The notes: generated from the letters alone by a model not told the origin. DNA of 64,000 bases from an uncultured Spirochaetota bacterium (GCA_963835575.1 CAWIGG010000002.1:1376001-1440000); one strand, 5' to 3'; positions 12,003 through 42,546 are shown, counted from the stretch's first letter. Made by a program: numbers and translations.

Positions 12003-12879
12003 ATTGAGTAGGAGGCGGGTTTACACCCGCCGACCTCTCACACCACCGTACGTACGGTTCCGTATACGGCGGTTCCAAAATATAATTTCTGATAAATACA
12101 AATCTTGTTCAGCATCGATACGAGTCCCATACTGTCGAATAATTTCTTAGGAAAGGCGATGTTCATATGTTTGTTGATGAAGCCTTTTAGCTGTTTTACA
12201 GTGACTCCGTCAACTCCCGCCGCCCCCTTATTGCTTACCACCCTGTGATAAGCTTCCAGCATGTTCTCGCGTTTGACCAGACGCTCTATTAAATTTGTTT
12301 CATCCGGTGTACTCCTTCTTTGACTCTCTGCACGGATACACGCGCTTTGGCTATTCTTCGGAATTCCGTCCCTATCCTTTGTCAAAGCCGGAAAGTTTCC
12401 TTCCGCTTCTGCGTAAGTTACCGTGTCAGGATTCATAGCGGTACTCCTATAGTTTGGTTCTGCCCTTCGCCTCCGGTCAAGAGGTTACTATGGCTTCTGC
12501 TGACTTCTGAAAACCCCTCTTATCACCTTTCGATGACAATAGCCAATATGTGGCAGGCTGTCAGACCTCCCCGGTAATGCGCTCGTTCCTTCACACTTAT
12601 GTCTGCCGCATCTACGTCATTGCTTTCTGTGTAAGTATCGGGCTTTAACGATAATTGCCGTCTCACCCAGCAGTGCCGCCTCTATGCGGTTTCTGTTCGT
12701 CAGACCAGTGCTTTGCCTGCAGCTTCCTTCAGATTCCGCCTCACGGCGGACACCCTTGCCGTCTGTCCCTCACCAGTTTGTCCGGCTGCCCGGAGAAGTT
12801 CACAAACTGGTGAGGGATTCCCCTTACCGGGTGCATACGGGACTTTCACCCGCAAGAACGTGCGCCCTGCCGGGCGCAC
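12003..12879 (-). mobile_element. Group IIC intron with internally deleted RT ORF
   Basis: Minus strand starts GTGCGCCCGGCAGGGCGCA at 12879; DV GAACCGCCGTATACGGAACCGTACGTACGGTGGTGTGAGAGG; DVI ending CCTACTCAAT at 12003; immediately follows a terminator hairpin. Confidence 0.92.
12038..12436 (-). pseudogene. Group II intron RT/maturase remnant, N-terminus fused in frame to the C-terminus
   Basis: RT0 segment RENMLEAYHRVVSNKGAAGVDGVTV joined to C-terminal MNIAFPKKLFDSMGLVS; no YADD; only 132 aa. Confidence 0.88.
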
Positions 12880-33776: not shown

Positions 33777-34435
33777 GGCGGCACAGCCTTCGGCTGTGAC
33801 ACGCTGCAGGATCGTCCGCCGGCAGGAAGCAACGACCGGAATTGTTTTTTTTAATTTTTGATCAAGATAAATTATAGAGCATCTTTATTTTTAAAACAGT
33901 TCGCTAATTTGCTCCAGCGGCTTGGGCTGCAGCCATTCGCGGCCGCACGCAGGTAACTCACCTGCCTCTTGTAAGCTTTTTTCAGAAGATTCTCTTATTT
34001 GCCCGTCTTGATTCTTTCAATCCGACAAGAGGCAGGTGAGTTACCTGCGTTTAAGCCGGCCTGCTCCCTTCGATGCGCTTCGCTTACTCAGGGCAGGCAT
34101 GGGCAGCCCTACGCCGCTTCCGCAATAAGCTAATAATTATTTTCAATCCTTTATTATGTTGATGTGATGATCAAAATTTAAAAAAAAACAATTCCGGCCT
34201 CAGCAGGGAGCGACCGCCGGCGGACGATAAAGTAAATGAAAATAATAATAAACAAAGGAATTTTATCTAAGAAGCGTCACTTCGATGAACTCAGTGCAAG
34301 AGAGATGAAAATTTCCTTCGCCGCTGGTTATAGTGTGAAGCAATGGTTCGGCAGGCTCACCATGGCGTCTGTCTGCACAGACACATCACTTCTTAGATAC
34401 CAAAAACCATTTTTAAACCTGTTGATTGACAAACG
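33777..34435. repeat. Long foldback element, copy A
   Basis: Nested inverted repeats 33811-33823/34216-34228, 33836-33864/34168-34197 and a perfect 26 bp pair 33947-33972/34025-34050; homologous to 39070-39610. Confidence 0.85.
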
Positions 34436-34525
34436 TAAAGTGAGTATCTGAATATATGCAGGAATACTCTTGACTTTAGTATTTTAAATATTTAGCTTCC
34501 TTTATATAAGTAAAGGAGCAGATAT

Positions 34526-35011
34526 ATGCAAAAGATCACCCCATTCCTCTGGTTCGATAATCAAGCCGAAGAGGCTGTTAATTTTTATGTGTCGATTTTT
34601 AAAAATTCAAAAATTGGAAGCGTTTCCCGTTATGGAGATGAAGGGACGGAGGTCTCCGGAAAGCCGAAGGGAACGGTCATGTCAGTCACATTCCAGCTCG
34701 ACGGGCAGGAATTCACGGCGTTGAACGGCGGCCCTCAATTCTCTTTCACGCCGGCCATATCTTTCTTTGTGAACTGCAAAACGCAGGAGGAAGTTGACGA
34801 GCTGTGGGAAAAGCTTTCCGAAGGCGGTGAGAAAGTACAATGCGGCTGGCTTAAAGACAAATACGGCATATCATGGCAGATCGTTCCGACTATTCTAGGC
34901 AAGCTTCTGAAGGACAAGGACCCTGAAAAATCGAAAAGGGTCATGACAGTCATGCTGAAAATGACTAAACTTGATATTGATGCTTTAAAGAAAGCATACA
35001 ACAACAACTAG
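34526..35011 (+). CDS. VOC / PhnB-like (3-demethylubiquinone-9 3-methyltransferase domain) protein
   Basis: [41 protein letters not shown]. Confidence 0.93.
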
Positions 35012-35101
35012 TGCCTATGGCTATGCCGCACTGCCAGATTGTACCCCGGTAGTAAGCAATGGCAGATAAAATACTTTTCTGGACACTGATAATTAATTTA
35101 T

Positions 35102-35317
35102 GGGCAGTTCCTCCCTCACCATTTTGGATTGCTTCAAGGTGGGCTTACAAAATGGTGAGGGATGGAACTGCCCCAGTTAAGAAATTCCTTGTAAATGTAA
35201 ATGGCGCTGCCGCATAGAATTCGCTGGCAAGTGATTTTTTTTGGCAGCGAACTCGAGCGGCCGCATGATCTAAAACAAGGTCGGCAGTTCTAAAAATGTG
35301 AGTTTTTAGAACTGCCC
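35102..35317. mobile_element. MITE/REPIN-like element, copy 1
   Basis: Ends GGGCAGTTC...GAACTGCCC, a hairpin at each end, interior colinear with 57895-58098. Confidence 0.8.
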
Positions 35318-35558
35318 TTTAAAATAATCACACATACGCTCAGAGGGTTTATTTTGCAACCGCTCACGGGTACATACGCAAGGAGAAGTTTGCGGCTCAA
35401 CTGCGCCGGGCCTCACACATGTGACAGTCCCCGGCGGACAAAAATATTTCAATAAACTTTCTTAATTTTATTGATAATAGGATTTGGGATAAAATACCTA
35501 TTGCCAGCTCTTCAATAATAATATAAGATATTATGAAAATTTAAATGGGGATTTTATT

Positions 35559-36407
35559 ATGAGTACGGAAATCTATTATTTTTCAGGGACGGGAAATTCG
35601 CTGGTTGTCGCGCGGGGAATAGCGGAGCAAACAAAAGGGAAACTGATCCCAATCGCTTCCATGGTTGATAAAAAAGCAGTCATGCCAAAAGCCGATAGTT
35701 TCGGTATCGTGTTTCCGGTCTATTATGTGGATATTCCCGTTATCATCAGAAAATTTGCAGAAAAACTGGATAATATCAAAGATAAGTACCTGTTCGCGGT
35801 ATGCACCTATGGGGGCGGAGCAGGGAATTCATTTAACAGCTTAAGCAGGATCATCCGATCGCGCAGAGGCGAACTTTCCGCTATGTTCGGCGTTCATATG
35901 CCGCAAAACGGATTTTTCAAACCCTGGGAAAAGCATCAGGTAATTTTTCAAAAAAGCAAAAAGAAGCTTAAAACAATCAGCAGGATGATTAATCTTAAGA
36001 AAAAAGGAATGCCTTTATCCGGTGCGCTGGCGCAGATCATTCTTTATCCCATTCAAATATTAAGCGAATCCGCTTTTAGAAGCTGGATCGTAAAAGCATC
36101 CGGCATATCAGATCGGCCGAATGAAGAACTGATCGGGCGGCTAGACAAGGATTACAGTACAAATGATAACTGCAGCGGCTGTGGGATATGCGTTCAGGTT
36201 TGCCCTGTCAATAACATAAAAATGGCAGACAAAAAGCCAGTGTGGCTGAACCATTGCGAGACCTGCCTGGCTTGCTATCACTGGTGTCCTATGAAAGCCA
36301 TTCAGGGTGGAATTTCTCCTTATAAAAATCAATTTTTTTATCATCATCCAGATATTAAAATTTCAGATATCATTAAACAGAAACAAGCTGTAAGTAATAT
36401 CATATGA
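35559..36407 (+). CDS. EFR1-family flavodoxin-ferredoxin fusion
   Basis: YYFSGTGNS, FPVY, HMPQN, CSGCGICVQVCP, CETCLACYHWCP. Confidence 0.9.
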   Translation: MSTEIYYFSGTGNSLVVARGIAEQTKGKLIPIASMVDKKAVMPKADSFGIVFPVYYVDIPVIIRKFAEKLDNIKDKYLFAVCTYGGGAGNSFNSLSRIIRSRRGELSAMFGVHMPQNGFFKPWEKHQVIFQKSKKKLKTISRMINLKKKGMPLSGALAQIILYPIQILSESAFRSWIVKASGISDRPNEELIGRLDKDYSTNDNCSGCGICVQVCPVNNIKMADKKPVWLNHCETCLACYHWCPMKAIQGGISPYKNQFFYHHPDIKISDIIKQKQAVSNII

Positions 36408-36424
36408 AAGAATGACTGGGTAAA

Positions 36425-36460
36425 CGTCCTTTCTTTCTTTTAAAAAAGAAAGAAAGGACG
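36425..36460. terminator. Hairpin between convergent genes
   Basis: CGTCCTTTCTTTCTTTT-AA-AAAAGAAAGAAAGGACG. Confidence 0.55.
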
Positions 36461-36489
36461 CATTAAACAAACTCTTCAACGTGAATTCA

Positions 36490-37116
36490 TTAATTATTAA
36501 AGCTCATATTAAGCTCCGCCGCTCCGATGATCTTGTCATTTATGGCAGCCATCATTTCATCGAGAGTGAACCCGTCTTTAAGCCCCGAGGGTGCCGATAG
36601 GGCGTAAACCTGAAGCCTGTAGACATGGATGATAGGTCTTTTCGCGTCCTTGGGAAAATCTTTCGGCGGCTGCGGGCCCGTATAACCTATCTCACCGCGG
36701 CCGTTTTTTCCCTGTATGAAGCCTCTTGGATGGGCCGAGGCGTTGTCCTTCAATCCGCCGAGTGAGGGATTGATATCGGCGGCGATCCAGTGAATGAACG
36801 AGTCTCCCTTCATTCCATTGGCGGCCATCACCTTCTTGGCGTCCGGGTCGTCAAAGACCAGGGCGAGCGCTTTTGTTCCCGCGGGAAGGTTTTTCCATGT
36901 GAACGGGAACAACCTGGGATTCGCTTTTCCCTTATCCTTAGCGGCATAAATCGCGGCGATCCTGCCGTCCGATTTCAAACCGGAATCGAAGCCTATCTGC
37001 GGTTTTCCCTTCACTGCCGGCGACATAAGCTTGAACGGACCTTTCGAAGCCGACATCAAAAAAAGAGCTATAACCGCCAGAAAAGCAACAACAGAAAGAT
37101 TCCTCATCATTTTCAT
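36490..37116 (-). CDS. YbhB/YbcL (PEBP) family secreted protein
   Basis: Signal peptide; ALVFDDPDA, FIHW, GYTGPQPP, HVYRLQVYAL. Confidence 0.9.
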   Translation of the reverse strand: MKMMRNLSVVAFLAVIALFLMSASKGPFKLMSPAVKGKPQIGFDSGLKSDGRIAAIYAAKDKGKANPRLFPFTWKNLPAGTKALALVFDDPDAKKVMAANGMKGDSFIHWIAADINPSLGGLKDNASAHPRGFIQGKNGRGEIGYTGPQPPKDFPKDAKRPIIHVYRLQVYALSAPSGLKDGFTLDEMMAAINDKIIGAAELNMSFNN

Positions 37117-37193
37117 ATTTCCTCCTTTTATTTTCGCAGAATGTCATTTCTGCTATTTTTATTAATATAATAAAATTAGAGGTGAAATGTCAA

Positions 37194-37799
37194 CCGGCGG
37201 CATCCTGCGGGGGTTTTGTTCACTTTTCTTTTGGAAAGTCCCAATGCCTCGACAAGCTCGGCAACCGAATACCCTTTTATCTAAACAAAAAACCAGAAAG
37301 CGATGTCCCGAGCACTTCGGCGTAGCTCAGTGTAAACTCCGCCGAGGGGAAAAGGACTTTCGAGGCCATTTTCATACGAAGAGGTCGGATTGTATGGATA
37401 TGTGTTATCCGGCTTTTAGAAAATCGTTTCTTTATTACAATAGCCTCCTTATATCGCTGTCCATAGCTTTATGCGTCGGTTGCGGCATCCCCTTCGACTC
37501 CCGTTCGACTTCGCTCACGGTCGCTCAGGGCAGGCTCTGCCGCAAGCATGGGCTTCAGCTCTTTTATTATTATAGCGGATAACACGTCATTCAATCGATT
37601 AGTTTGATTTGCAGATTATGGTTTAGAGGAAAATGGCCTCGGGTACTGATATTGAATCGAATTTCTTTTTGATTATTACCCAATACTTCCTTTTAAAATA
37701 TTCCTTTATAAAGAATCAATTCCAGACATCAGCTATCATTTCGAAGGTTTGAAAACAACTCCGCCGCAGATTAACACTCGTTATTTGACAAACGGCAGG
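37194..37799. repeat. Long foldback element B containing nested REP-like hairpins
   Basis: Pairs CGAGGCCATTTTC (37361)/GAAAATGGCCTCG (37629), GTGTTATCCG/CGGATAACAC and TTGCGGCA/TGCCGCAA; right end shares AACAC(T)CGTTATTTGACAAACGGCAGG with copy C. Confidence 0.7.
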
Positions 37800-37837
37800 C
37801 GCGTATGTAATGCCCGACCGAATAGACAGGATGGCCT

Positions 37838-38968
37838 CTAAAACAGCCCTTTACGCACAACAATTGCCTTTTGCGGACAGATTTCCTGACAGCAGTAGCA
37901 CCGGATGCACTTATTGTAGTTATATACTGGCGGCTGCTTTTTATCTCCGTTCTTGAAATCAAGCGCTTTGCCTTCCACAGGGCAGGCATCGACGCATATG
38001 CCGCATTTGATGCAATTTTCTTTTATTATGAAAGGTCTGGGAAAAATGAAATTGCCGATAAACTTCGGAACCAGGTTTCTTTGATATGTTTTTTCCACAG
38101 GCTTCCGGACAACATTGAAATTTTTATTGATGAATAAATCAATAGGATCACCTAAAAGTTCTATTTCTTCTTCCTTATATGTTCCCAGGCCCGCCTGACT
38201 GCCGTAAACGTTCGTCGGCACATACTCCGGATTCATGTCTATCATTCCGGCAAATGTGGCATCCATCGCGATGGGATCGGCGGATACCATGATACAGTTC
38301 ATTTTGACGGCATCTCCGGCGCGGGGTCCGTTCCCATCCATTGCCACGATTCCATCCATAATAAAAAGGCGCATTTTTAAATTTTTATTCAGGTCCACAA
38401 GCATTTTGGCGAAGTTCAGCGGATGAGGGACCTTGACATGAAAGGCGGCCTTGTTCATACCGTAAACACAGCCGAACTGGTTTTTAATTGCGCCGGTAAT
38501 CCGGGTCAGCGCGTGGGTTTTCATCTTCGGGAGGCTGATAATGCCGTCTGTTTCGAGACATGCGTTTGCAATATCGAATTTTACCGCTGCCATACCCTGC
38601 GGATAATCTATGCTTCTGCCCTTTTCAAAATCGCCTAATTTAATGGAATAGCGCCCGGCTATTTCCGTCAAGCCGGCTTTTGTCAGGGCCGCGGAAGGTT
38701 TTTCAAACCCCGGCGAATCCCCGTACGTTACATTGACGCCGTATTCCATCAGCAATCTGACGATGCCGTTAAACACTGAAGGGTGCGTGGTGACGAGATC
38801 TTCGGGTTTTGCGGCGGCGAGAATATTCGACTTTAAAAGGATGTTTTCCCCTTTTTTAACGAACGATCCGATCCCGCCGATCAGGTCCACTCCCCTCTTT
38901 ATAGCCTCATAGACCTTCTGCTCGTCATAGCTTTCACAGCGTACAATTGCGACTTTTGATTTATTCAT
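37838..38968 (-). CDS. DUF362 domain + 4Fe-4S ferredoxin protein
   Basis: VAIVRCESYD, LLKSNIL, TTHPSV, LPKMKTH, AIKNQFG, MDGNGP; two CxxCxxCxxxCP motifs; start inferred from AGGAG RBS. Confidence 0.9.
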   Translation of the reverse strand: MNKSKVAIVRCESYDEQKVYEAIKRGVDLIGGIGSFVKKGENILLKSNILAAAKPEDLVTTHPSVFNGIVRLLMEYGVNVTYGDSPGFEKPSAALTKAGLTEIAGRYSIKLGDFEKGRSIDYPQGMAAVKFDIANACLETDGIISLPKMKTHALTRITGAIKNQFGCVYGMNKAAFHVKVPHPLNFAKMLVDLNKNLKMRLFIMDGIVAMDGNGPRAGDAVKMNCIMVSADPIAMDATFAGMIDMNPEYVPTNVYGSQAGLGTYKEEEIELLGDPIDLFINKNFNVVRKPVEKTYQRNLVPKFIGNFIFPRPFIIKENCIKCGICVDACPVEGKALDFKNGDKKQPPVYNYNKCIRCYCCQEICPQKAIVVRKGLF

Positions 38969-39069
38969 AATCTGTTTTCTCCTTATATAATTTAACATTA
39001 AATTATATTATAATAGATGAAAATCGGCAATTTTAATTTAGATGTCTGCGACTGATGAGAAAGAAAAAG

Positions 39070-39610
39070 GGCGGTACAGCCTTCGGCTGTGCCACGCTGC
39101 AAGATTGTCCCCCGGCGGAGAGCTGCGGCAGAGAGTAAACTTTTCTGAATGCTGATATATAATCTACATCCTTGTTAATTTTAACAAAGGCACGCTTCGC
39201 TCCGAGGGCTTGTTTTGCAATCCGCTCCCGGACACGCACTCGGAACTCACACGCCCATTGTAAGCATTTTTTTAAAGAATCCTTAATTAATCTGTTTTGA
39301 TTCCGGAATTTCCGACAATGGGCGTGCTCGGACAATCCGAGTTCTCAAGCTGTCCGGGAGCGGAGCAAAACTACGCCCTCTCCGCGATGCTCTGTACTTC
39401 AATTCCTTTATTAACTGAGTGACGCATCCAGAAAATTTTACTCTCTGCCCCCAGCAGGGAGAAACCGCCGGCGGACGGTATAGAGAAAAAAATAATAATA
39501 AAAATGTATACAAAAGCCCGGACACTGAGCGGAGCCGAAGTGGCCGGACATAAAAACAGCTTACAACGGCGCCTGTCTTGACATAACACCGTTATTTGAC
39601 AAACGGCAGG
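39070..39610. repeat. Long foldback element, copy C (homolog of A)
   Basis: Inverted pairs 39127-39139/39437-39449, 39221-39234/39351-39364 and 39250-39261/39315-39326; ends and loops shared with copy A. Confidence 0.85.
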
Positions 39611-39625
39611 TTAATGTGCTACACT
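39596..39625 (+). promoter_or_regulatory. Putative sigma70 promoter
   Basis: TTGACA, 18 nt spacer ending TGC, then TACACT (extended -10). Confidence 0.45.
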
Positions 39626-39729
39626 GAATCGATTGGTGTTAAAGAGATGGGGATTAGGTTCTCAGGATTTCGCGAAGAAAGCCGGGCTGTTTTAAGCCGG
39701 CTTATTTCTCTATGGAAGCATAACGTTGG

Positions 39730-39756
39730 GGCATGCGGAAAGGCATGCCTTTTTTT
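39730..39756 (+). terminator. Intrinsic terminator directly upstream of the DUF3800-like gene RBS
   Basis: GGCATGC-GGAAAG-GCATGCC-TTTTTTT. Confidence 0.65.
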
Positions 39757-39776
39757 GTTTAAAAAAGGAGAAAACA

Positions 39777-40625
39777 ATGCGAATTGTCGTGGGTATAGAT
39801 GAAACTGGTACCGAAAGACAAATTTGTGATGGATGGTGTTACTTTGGGATACCTAATGATTGTTTAAAATCATTTGATAAAGAATCTAATGTAATAAAAT
39901 CGAAACATAATATTTCTAAATTTCATGCTAAAGAATATCAAAACTCAGAAAGGACTGCATATGAAGAATTTCTTTTACTTATTGAAAAATACATCGAATC
40001 TTGTCCTATTTCAATTTGTTCAACATACCTGTATCGTAAAGACTGGAATATAAAACTTCATGAGTTCTCAGAAAGAATATTATCAGGTGCAACAAAAACA
40101 GTTGGTATAGAAAATCTAGATGCCACAAAGATCGCGAAATTATTTCTCCCACCATTATATTCGCTTTCAAAGATTGGAAGAAATTTAAATCATTCATCTG
40201 AATTTGAAGTTTATTTTGATAGTGACCAACTTAAATCTCAAATTAATAATCATGTTTTTTCATTAACTACAGAAATAGGTCTGAGTCTTCGAAAAACAAT
40301 AGCTATAGTTGCAAATGAATATCGAAAATTAAATTATCCAAATTCACCAAAGATACTAGATACAAATATTCAAGTTTTAGATGATGAAAAAAGCAATATT
40401 ATTCAAGCAGCGGATGTAATAGGAAACTTCTCTAATGCATATATATTCACAACCCTGGGTGGTGTTTCAAATAAAAGAAAAGAAAAATCTACAATCTTCA
40501 CTAAGGCATTTGGTAAACATTTAACTGAAGTTGATTTTAGTGGTCAAATTAAATTACATGGATTAAATGATTTAGAGCTTATTGGGGATGCTGCTGCACT
40601 CCCATTTATACTTGGGAGATGTTAA
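39777..40625 (+). CDS. DUF3800-like (RNase H-fold) protein
   Basis: VGIDETG, KFHAKE, VYFDSD, IIQAADVIGN; AAGGAG RBS; very AT-rich. Confidence 0.7.
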   Translation: MRIVVGIDETGTERQICDGWCYFGIPNDCLKSFDKESNVIKSKHNISKFHAKEYQNSERTAYEEFLLLIEKYIESCPISICSTYLYRKDWNIKLHEFSERILSGATKTVGIENLDATKIAKLFLPPLYSLSKIGRNLNHSSEFEVYFDSDQLKSQINNHVFSLTTEIGLSLRKTIAIVANEYRKLNYPNSPKILDTNIQVLDDEKSNIIQAADVIGNFSNAYIFTTLGGVSNKRKEKSTIFTKAFGKHLTEVDFSGQIKLHGLNDLELIGDAAALPFILGRC

Positions 40626-41926: not shown

Positions 41927-42013
41927 AATAACTCAATATAAAATTCTTGTTATCCGCGAATAGTATAATAGAAGAGAGTTAAATTATTTTTAGAATCATT
42001 AATTTTATTTTTA

Positions 42014-42546
42014 ATCCTGTTCATCCTGACATATCCTATAAATCCTGCCGAATTGGGGTCAATACAACAATTTCAATCAAATATAAATAGATCCTTATAG
42101 AAATATTCCCGTCATTAGACAAATAAGTAAACCCTCATTATTATTATGAATAATAAAAGGAGCTCATCATGGAAGAAGGTATGTCCATCCAGGTCCAATT
42201 CACTCCCGAAGAAACCCCATTTTACAATAATATACAAAAGCATTGCACGGATAAAGGGATCAGCGCCTCAAATTACATCAAGGAACTGCTGAAAAGAGAC
42301 CTGGGATGGGGCCGGTTCATGAAACGGAGAAAACCGCGCACGGAGGAGTAATAAAACACCTTATAAATATCGACCCCAATTCCACAGGATTATCAGGATC
42401 ACTCAAGATTTTCAGGATTATTATTTGGAATCTTCAACTGTTTTTTTTTATCCTGTGAATCCTATATTATCCTGAAAATCCTGACCGAATTGGGTTCAGT
42501 ACAACAATTTTAATCAAATAAAAATTGATCATTCATAAAAAATATT
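42014..42546. repeat. ATCCTG-periodic repeats in direct and inverted arrangement
   Basis: Direct copies 42014-42107 and 42450-42546; inverted arm 42372-42420 (GACCCCAATT..CAGGATTATCAGGAT). Confidence 0.78.
42169..42351 (+). CDS. Small protein, possible ribbon-helix-helix regulator or antitoxin
   Basis: AAGGAG RBS; strand-helix-helix pattern SIQVQFT..IQKHC..GISASNYIKELLKRDL. Confidence 0.5.
   Translation: MEEGMSIQVQFTPEETPFYNNIQKHCTDKGISASNYIKELLKRDLGWGRFMKRRKPRTEE

What the first reader, a model, noticed from the sequence alone, without database searches (positions are those of the whole stretch)
33777..39610. Large foldback element family with conserved loops and swapped, still-paired stems
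Seen: copies A (33777-34251) and C (39070-39501) share the left end GGCGGYACAGCCTTCGGCTGTGMCACGCTGCARGATYGTCCSCCGGC, the apical loop TTGTAAGC..TTTTT..AAGA..TTGATTC..TCCGACAA, bulge motifs (GCTCC..GGCTTG, CTACGCC, TCCTTTATTA) and the right end CAGCAGGGAG..ACCGCCGGCGGACG..AAATAATAATAAA. The stems are largely unrelated in sequence yet still complementary: A has CCGGAATTGTTTTTTTTAATTTTTGATCA/TGATCAAAATTTAAAAAAAAACAATTCCGG, C has GGCAGAGAGTAAA/TTTACTCTCTGCC. No credible ORF is present. Inference: a >400 nt rod-like RNA or ssDNA structure under selection, either an undescribed large ncRNA or a non-autonomous element whose arms are rewritten together. This is the strongest novel-system candidate in the window.
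Basis: partly seen in the sequence, partly recalled or inferred. Interest (0 to 1): 0.85.

Follow-up and report, generated by a model that had tools for sequence, protein, structure and literature searches.

The report
Structured mobile foldback repeat family
The two flagged stretches are copies of an apparently undescribed gene-less repeat whose folded 190-base core is conserved by base-pairing across related bacteria and which most likely spreads as folded single-stranded DNA, using an enzyme that has not been identified.

Summary
Real. A and C are 2 of 9 full copies (two subfamilies) in this genome. Only a ~190-nt core is family-wide. A covariance model finds it in 8 of 11 same-family genomes. 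In 46 held-out copies aligned by sequence alone, 86% of stem cells pair, against 34-42% in slid controls. The folded strand is the minus strand. Its hairpins end in c(GNA)g triloops (10 of 17; 0 on the other strand), a DNA-type loop. Copies cluster by genome, sit beside unrelated genes and are missing at syntenic sites, so the element moves. The ends are modular. 27 of 63 cores end in an A/T-rich cap whose third tract mirrors the hairpin (mirror beats direct repeat 45:0), like BoxC/PIT triplex repeats; A and C carry a different shell. I found no Rfam match, no target duplication, no linked enzyme and no RNA data. 'Arms rewritten together' is mostly wrong: changes arise one side at a time, with one clear arm-copying event in A. 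Best reading: a non-autonomous ssDNA-folded repeat, mobiliser unknown. The scan noted similar foldback and triplex repeats in other genomes; I did not test whether they are the same family.

The parts
33777..34252 (-). Copy A, whole element (A-type subfamily; decayed: tip loop erased, 32-nt insert)
33780..33800 (-). A: terminal shell hairpin with c(GAA)g triloop on the minus strand
33836..33864 (.). A: outer arm, pairs with 34168-34197 (not shared outside this genome)
33907..34127 (-). A: conserved core, 162.6 bits to model R1 (A is a seed of the model)
33947..34050 (.). A: perfect 26-bp inverted repeat (33947-33972 / 34025-34050); right arm lacks the conserved TGTYYGA loop, read as copied from the left arm
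34067..34098 (.). A: short REP-like hairpin inserted in the right arm (approximate limits)
34216..34252 (-). A: closing GTCC/GGAC shell stem and A-rich (minus: T-rich) tail
35013..35440 (-). Copy B: same shell and first arm, core absent, interior filled by other hairpin repeats; begins 2 nt after the stop codon of the gene at 34526-35011 (right limit approximate)
37362..37640 (-). 'Family X' rod: a different interior, 28 motif sites in this genome, many carrying the same A/T triplex-type cap (this copy's cap is replaced)
39070..39502 (-). Copy C, whole element (C-type subfamily)
39073..39093 (-). C: terminal shell hairpin with c(GAA)g triloop on the minus strand
39127..39152 (.). C: outer arm, pairs with 39424-39449
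39195..39389 (-). C: conserved core, 185 bits to R1 (seed). Internal loops GNA/GNA, GTA/AA, GA/GA, TGTYYGA/GAG; AT-rich tip loop of about 55 nt
39467..39502 (-). C: closing shell stem and tail

Best explanation
A non-autonomous, gene-less mobile repeat that is read as folded single-stranded DNA (the window's minus strand). SHOWN: a ~190-nt rod whose stems change sequence but keep pairing while its small internal loops keep their sequence; dispersal to unrelated intergenic sites; gain and loss between congeneric genomes; lineage-specific amplification; interchangeable ends (A/T triplex-type cap in some genomes, GTCC..GGAC shell with a GNA hairpin here). INFERRED: when the strand is exposed it folds; a protein supplied in trans binds the conserved loops; the end hairpin or cap fixes the boundary; the copy is joined to a new site by strand transfer without target duplication, as for REP/REPIN or IS200-type HUH chemistry. 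Selection acts on the copies that can still move, so copies that lose the loops (like A) are probably dead ends. The enzyme is not identified.
For: Covariation: 93.9% of cells paired and 46 of 47 pairs with both-side changes in 62 distinct rows, slid controls 29-39% (alignment fitted to the model). Held-out, sequence-only alignment of 46 copies: 85.7% against 34-42%, 44 of 46 pairs. 37 double changes against 10 expected in 16 disjoint pairs. Mobility: nearest non-identical neighbour in the same genome for 50 of 61 copies, with 97-98% identical copies at different loci. No core in this genome's matching spacer for the 7 filled relative loci compared, one spacer being about 70 bp. None upstream of purH in 4 of 4 congeners. 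107 flanking proteins are diverse, and all four gene orientations occur. DNA-type loops: c(GNA)g triloops in 10 of 17 shell hairpins on the minus strand, 0 of 17 on the plus strand, 1 of 300 random windows, and in 5 of 13 distinct short tips of relatives. GNA mini-hairpins are much more stable in DNA than the RNA hairpin tested (PMC13037366, passages).
Against: No mobilising gene found. Y1_Tnp and DUF559 are each absent from 4 of 4 congeners that carry the core. This genome's Y1 gene and the family's DUF559 genes are flanked by other repeats. No enzyme gene lay inside capped elements in the regions fetched. No replication-strand bias: 6 of 9 cores, 5 of 13 shells and 19 of 28 family X copies lie on the G-rich strand, though skew is weak. 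G.T over A.C excess is 85:43 in the fitted alignment but only 91:69 in the held-out one, and it cannot tell DNA from RNA. Tandem G.A loops and a pyrimidine-motif triplex are equally RNA-compatible. No excised or circular form was seen.
Confidence: 0.55

Rival explanations
1. A structured RNA that is copied back into the genome (retroposed in trans, for example by a group II intron reverse transcriptase), with the triplex cap protecting its 3' end.
For: One-strand polarity; tandem G.A loops; the cap lies at the 3' end of the structured strand and would form U.A-U / C.G-C triples; the minus strand folds better in 45 of 58 cores as RNA; group II intron RT genes exist in this genome; a weak -35/-10 match points into A's minus strand (at chance level).
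Against: Terminal loops are GNA triloops, with 0 of 17 cUUCGg, GNRA or GNA loops on the other strand. No Rfam match. In a sister family the units form inverted doublets with caps facing outward on opposite strands, a REPIN-like DNA layout. No conserved promoter or terminator match inside C.
Confidence: 0.25
2. A host-selected cis element (mRNA stabiliser, terminator or portable promoter) spread by ordinary recombination.
For: 4 of the 16 copies and shells listed begin within about 12 nt of a stop codon; many relatives abut a convergent gene's end; the tip loop is AT-rich, of near-fixed length, and in one relative reads TTGTAT-17-TATAAT.
Against: No orientation rule and no shared gene class; sites are not kept between congeners; copy number runs from 1 to 17 per genome.
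Confidence: 0.1
3. No selection: pairing is maintained by template-switch correction of quasi-palindromes, and copies spread by duplication.
For: A shows one such correction; 12 of 31 Watson-Crick double changes are transversion-type; some copies are simple segmental duplicates (4 identical cores in an Rhs array).
Against: Arm copying erases asymmetric loops, yet GTAG is kept in 46 of 63, CAAG in 50 of 63 and the right-hand GA in 63 of 63 cores. Copying cannot make a mirror repeat. The closest pairs differ by one-sided changes only.
Confidence: 0.1

Closest known systems
REP / BIME / REPIN repeats mobilised by TnpA-REP (RAYT) (PMC6006769 and PMC3733652, passages read)
   Same: Intergenic, multicopy, lineage-specific, hairpin-forming, mosaic, often next to stop codons; inverted doublets in a sister family; a conserved GTAG 5' of a stem in 46 of 63 cores.
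   Different: [quoted passage not shown]
BoxC / PIT / TM_ECO intrastrand triplex repeats (PMC4666352: abstract, introduction, sections 15-16 and passages read; supplement could not be searched)
   Same: The cap has the same three-tract layout (hairpin plus mirror tract), is intergenic, and occurs in inverted pairs.
   Different: TM_ECO is a 34-37-nt G/C-rich motif standing alone. This cap is A/T-rich, has a 4-5-bp extra basal stem and is attached to long structured rods. A and C lack it. The parts read describe no conserved A/T family of this form.
Long-hairpin bacterial repeats and MITEs: bcr1, Correia/NEMIS, ERIC (PMC3184786, passages read)
   Same: 100-200-nt repeats folding into long stems; bcr1 also shows compensatory changes and a non-conserved genomic distribution.
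   Different: No target-site duplication seen (bcr1 has 5 bp); no terminal inverted repeat shared across the family; ends are ragged and interchangeable.
Large bacterial ncRNAs such as HEARO, GOLLD, ROOL and 6S (names recalled; tested only through Rfam)
   Same: Size and strong covariation.
   Different: No Rfam hit; simple rod rather than a multibranch fold; no linked gene.

Membership tests
REP/REPIN (RAYT-dependent) | Short (21-65 nt) hairpin with a GTAG/GTGG or CGTC tetranucleotide at its foot | tested here: not met
   Core ~190 nt; GTAG in 46 of 63 but inside the rod (definition)
REP/REPIN (RAYT-dependent) | Cognate tnpA-REP gene flanked by the same repeat | tested here: not met
   PF01797 in 5 of 12 family genomes, 0 of 4 congeners (MAGs, 94-96% complete); this genome's gene is flanked by a different repeat; no cap pattern in the 11 Y1 loci
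REP/REPIN (RAYT-dependent) | Inverted doublets | tested here: inconclusive
   Present for related short-tip units in family f5; the copies in this genome are single
BoxC/PIT/TM intrastrand triplex repeats | Hairpin plus third tract in mirror register | tested here: met
   For the cap in relatives: mirror beats direct 45:0 with 6 ties among 51 of 180 hairpins; own versus permuted 9.10 versus 7.72, 0 of 2000. Not present in A, C or the other 7 copies here
BoxC/PIT/TM intrastrand triplex repeats | TM_ECO G/C-rich consensus | tested here: not met
   Cap is T/A-rich
BoxC/PIT/TM intrastrand triplex repeats | Triplex forms in vitro | not testable with these tools
   Needs CD, NMR or probing; the 1-4-nt linker across a 4-5-bp basal stem may strain it
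MITE (DDE-transposase derived) | Target-site duplication and family-wide terminal inverted repeats | tested here: not met
   None seen by eye in the flanks of 9 copies here or of 7 groups of close copies in relatives; no close-strain empty site was available, so a short duplication could be missed
Any Rfam 15 family | Match at gathering score or E<=1 | tested here: not met
   Window; 9 loci with cores; 6 capped prophage loci
Structured ncRNA | Discrete transcript | not testable with these tools
   No RNA holder listed

The most novel reading that the evidence does not exclude
These rods and their A/T triplex caps are one widespread, undescribed class of modular ssDNA elements (core, cap and shell recombining like cassettes) that move without any linked transposase, using a still-unknown host or trans-acting strand-transfer enzyme, and whose cap end can fuse to neighbouring DNA, as at the orphan Rhs tip cassettes of two congeners.
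Probability: 0.3. Interest if true: 0.8.

Novelty: new variant of a known kind. Interest (0 to 1): 0.56.

Why it matters
How small bacterial foldback repeats spread is known only for REPs with a RAYT gene. Here is a family with a well-supported structure model, defined invariant loops, recent copies and no such gene in several carriers, so a pull-down or phylogenetic profile has a precise bait. The cap also gives three-way sequence covariation for a natural intrastrand triplex; the paper I read showed folding of its own triplex motif in vitro but not in vivo.

Tried and rejected
Pattern scan of genome contigs: 19 hits, all chance. Core patterns in viral contigs: nothing real. Metagenome scan: 1 true core of 5 hits. 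Plasmid and phage blastn: no relevant match. blastn of relatives missed almost all copies; only the covariance model found them. Model searches score few candidates per genome and missed a 72.6-bit copy in G005 twice (against 118), so the blanks outside the family (0 of 29, 0 of 145) are weak. Sequencing runs: no RNA holder listed, and the one DNA run laid was uninformative. Promoter and terminator scans inside the elements were at chance level. Lagging-strand bias not found. Y1_Tnp and DUF559 rejected as linked partners; GxxExxY, IS91, IS110 and tyrosine recombinases were not profiled. The 'far side' control (62 of 180) is uninformative because each hairpin is seen from both strands. A second, broader covariance model was not built, so reach beyond the family rests on model R1 and on patterns. 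Literature searches finding no description of this family; passages of PMC2267715 and PMC8632094 showed nothing matching; their supplements were not read, and most subscription papers are outside the library.

Full report
Observation. blastn and nhmmer on the window's genome (G000) give 9 full copies of 415-477 nt plus partial ones. They form two subfamilies: A-type (4 copies) and C-type (5). A MAFFT alignment of the nine shows 39 of 90 predicted pairs with a change on both sides. No frame is shared. Rfam has no match here. Earlier notes call the organism a spirochaete; I did not check that.

Anatomy in this genome. Each copy has three layers. An outer shell consists of a small hairpin, a GTCC..GGAC stem and an A-rich tail. 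Inside it lie outer arms, and inside those a core. The shell also occurs empty and around other interiors, including copy B at 35013-35440, so A and C are composites.

The core is the family. A weak blastn hit in a same-family genome led to further copies. A covariance model from 14 cores (9 from G000, 5 from G009) matched 7 of 11 same-family genomes, including 4 of 4 congeners, with 58 matches outside G000, 5 of them seeds. An eighth genome has a 72.6-bit copy that the genome searches missed. One metagenome contig scores 166 bits. Genomes outside the family gave none (0 of 29; 0 of 145), but those searches score few candidates. I aligned the 65 matches in the loci I had fetched and dropped 2 (a weak fragment and an antisense duplicate), leaving 63.

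Covariation. On the model-fitted alignment 93.9% of cells pair and 46 of 47 pairs change on both sides; slid controls give 29-39%. On 46 held-out copies aligned by sequence alone the figures are 85.7% and 44 of 46, with controls at 34-42%. In 16 disjoint close pairs there are 37 double changes where 10 are expected, but also 64 single ones, and the three closest pairs have only singles. Compensation is therefore mostly stepwise. Internal loops are more conserved than stems (0.77 against 0.64), while the AT-rich tip loop keeps mainly its length. Copy A is the exception: a perfect 26-bp repeat has replaced the conserved TGTYYGA loop, which I read as template-switch copying (inference).

Which strand, and DNA or RNA. 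On the minus strand the conserved loops read GNA/GNA, GTA/AA, GA/GA and TGTYYGA/GAG. That strand folds better in 45 of 58 cores as RNA and 50 of 58 as DNA. The shell hairpins close with c(GNA)g triloops (N = A, C, T) in 10 of 17 cases that I picked; the other strand has no GNA, GNRA or cUUCGg loop, and random windows give 1 of 300. Short-tipped relatives use the same loops in 5 of 13 distinct tips. Only GNA triloops form the very stable DNA mini-hairpin, and the RNA hairpin tested melts far lower (PMC13037366, passages). This favours ssDNA but is indirect. There is no expression evidence either way.

Mobility. The nearest neighbour lies in the same genome for 50 of 61 copies, and the tree groups mostly by genome. 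G000's copies group with a metagenome copy and one from another genus rather than with congeners, which could be transfer or old paralogy (not tested). For 7 filled loci in relatives, the syntenic spacer in G000 has no core. The region upstream of purH, filled in G000, has none in 4 of 4 congeners. Flanking genes are diverse (107 of 117 scanned) and in all orientations. I saw no target duplication.

The cap. In 27 of 63 cores (all from G004, G007, G008, G009 and the metagenome contig) the structured strand ends in pyrimidine tract, linker, pyrimidine tract, loop, purine tract. It is absent from the 36 cores of G000-G003 in the alignment, though two shorter G002 cores have it. The first tract tracks the purine tract in parallel register as its pattern changes: mirror beats direct repeat 45:0 with 6 ties, and own pairing beats permuted pairing in 2000 of 2000 shuffles. 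Caveats: the rows are related, many loci were found through a capped query, and 6 prophage loci were selected by a pattern containing the tract. The cap pattern occurs in 35 of 301 phylum genomes with one reversed-control match, and in 6 prophage stretches, one of which also carries the TGTYYGA/GAGTT motif. It caps at least four different interiors, including 'family X' here. In family f5, short-tip rods form ~430-500-nt inverted doublets with caps facing outward.

Partner enzyme. None found. Y1_Tnp and DUF559 are absent from all four congeners, and where present they have their own repeats. Genes found inside capped elements were a group II intron, IS1182, another IS, or a host-type gene between two elements. 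There is no replication-strand bias.

Mechanism and verdict. Shown: structure, polarity, modular ends, spread. Inferred: ssDNA folding, recognition of the internal loops by a trans-acting protein, duplication-free strand transfer (0.55). RNA-mediated spread remains possible (0.25). It works like a REPIN or long-hairpin repeat but fails the tested membership features of REP, MITE and every Rfam family. I found no description in the searches named under Tried and rejected. Earlier notes describe comparable foldback families in other genomes, possibly the same superfamily; sequence look-ups returned no look-alike. New variant of a known kind; interest 0.56.

Noticed in passing
window 12003-12879 (-): Group II intron starting GTGCG right after a terminator-like hairpin, with its reverse transcriptase ORF reduced to a short internally deleted remnant.
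   Followed up: partly
window 37362-37640; 28 motif sites in G000: 'Family X' capped rods act as landing pads: a group II intron at the same position in 2 copies, IS1182 at one site in 4, and another IS in 1.
   Followed up: partly
L116, L117, L098 (G004); L201 (G002): The cap's 3' end is fused directly to 5'-truncated Rhs tip fragments at several different breakpoints; one junction falls at the Arg codon of the core 'RFYDP' motif relative to the intact parent. May be element-bounded cassette displacement or adjacent deletion.
   Followed up: partly
L092 (G001), L126 (G002), L093 (G004); G000:C4:59823-59894: Three congeners each have a core just after the lipid A acyltransferase stop codon, with different ends; G000 has none. 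Hotspot or old insertion, unresolved.
   Followed up: partly
L226, L241-L248 (family f5): 430-500-nt inverted doublets of short-tip rods with outward-facing triplex caps; up to 55 caps per genome.
   Followed up: partly
   Followed up: partly
window 37777-37803 and 39587-39612: A 27-nt motif (CGTTATTTGACAAACGGCAGG core) occurs twice near the elements; not part of the core.
   Followed up: no
window 39726-40625 (+): 299-aa ORF after C with no Pfam hit; its DE..G and QAAD motifs recall DUF3800 (recalled, untested). It is followed by an AT-rich 341-aa ORF, possibly a defence island.
   Followed up: no
window 42012-42533: Another long inverted and direct repeat cluster (53-nt arms, 49-nt direct repeat).
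   Followed up: no
G000:C6:164601-164930 and G000:C2:1501128-1501410: Two shells share a third, different structured interior.
   Followed up: no
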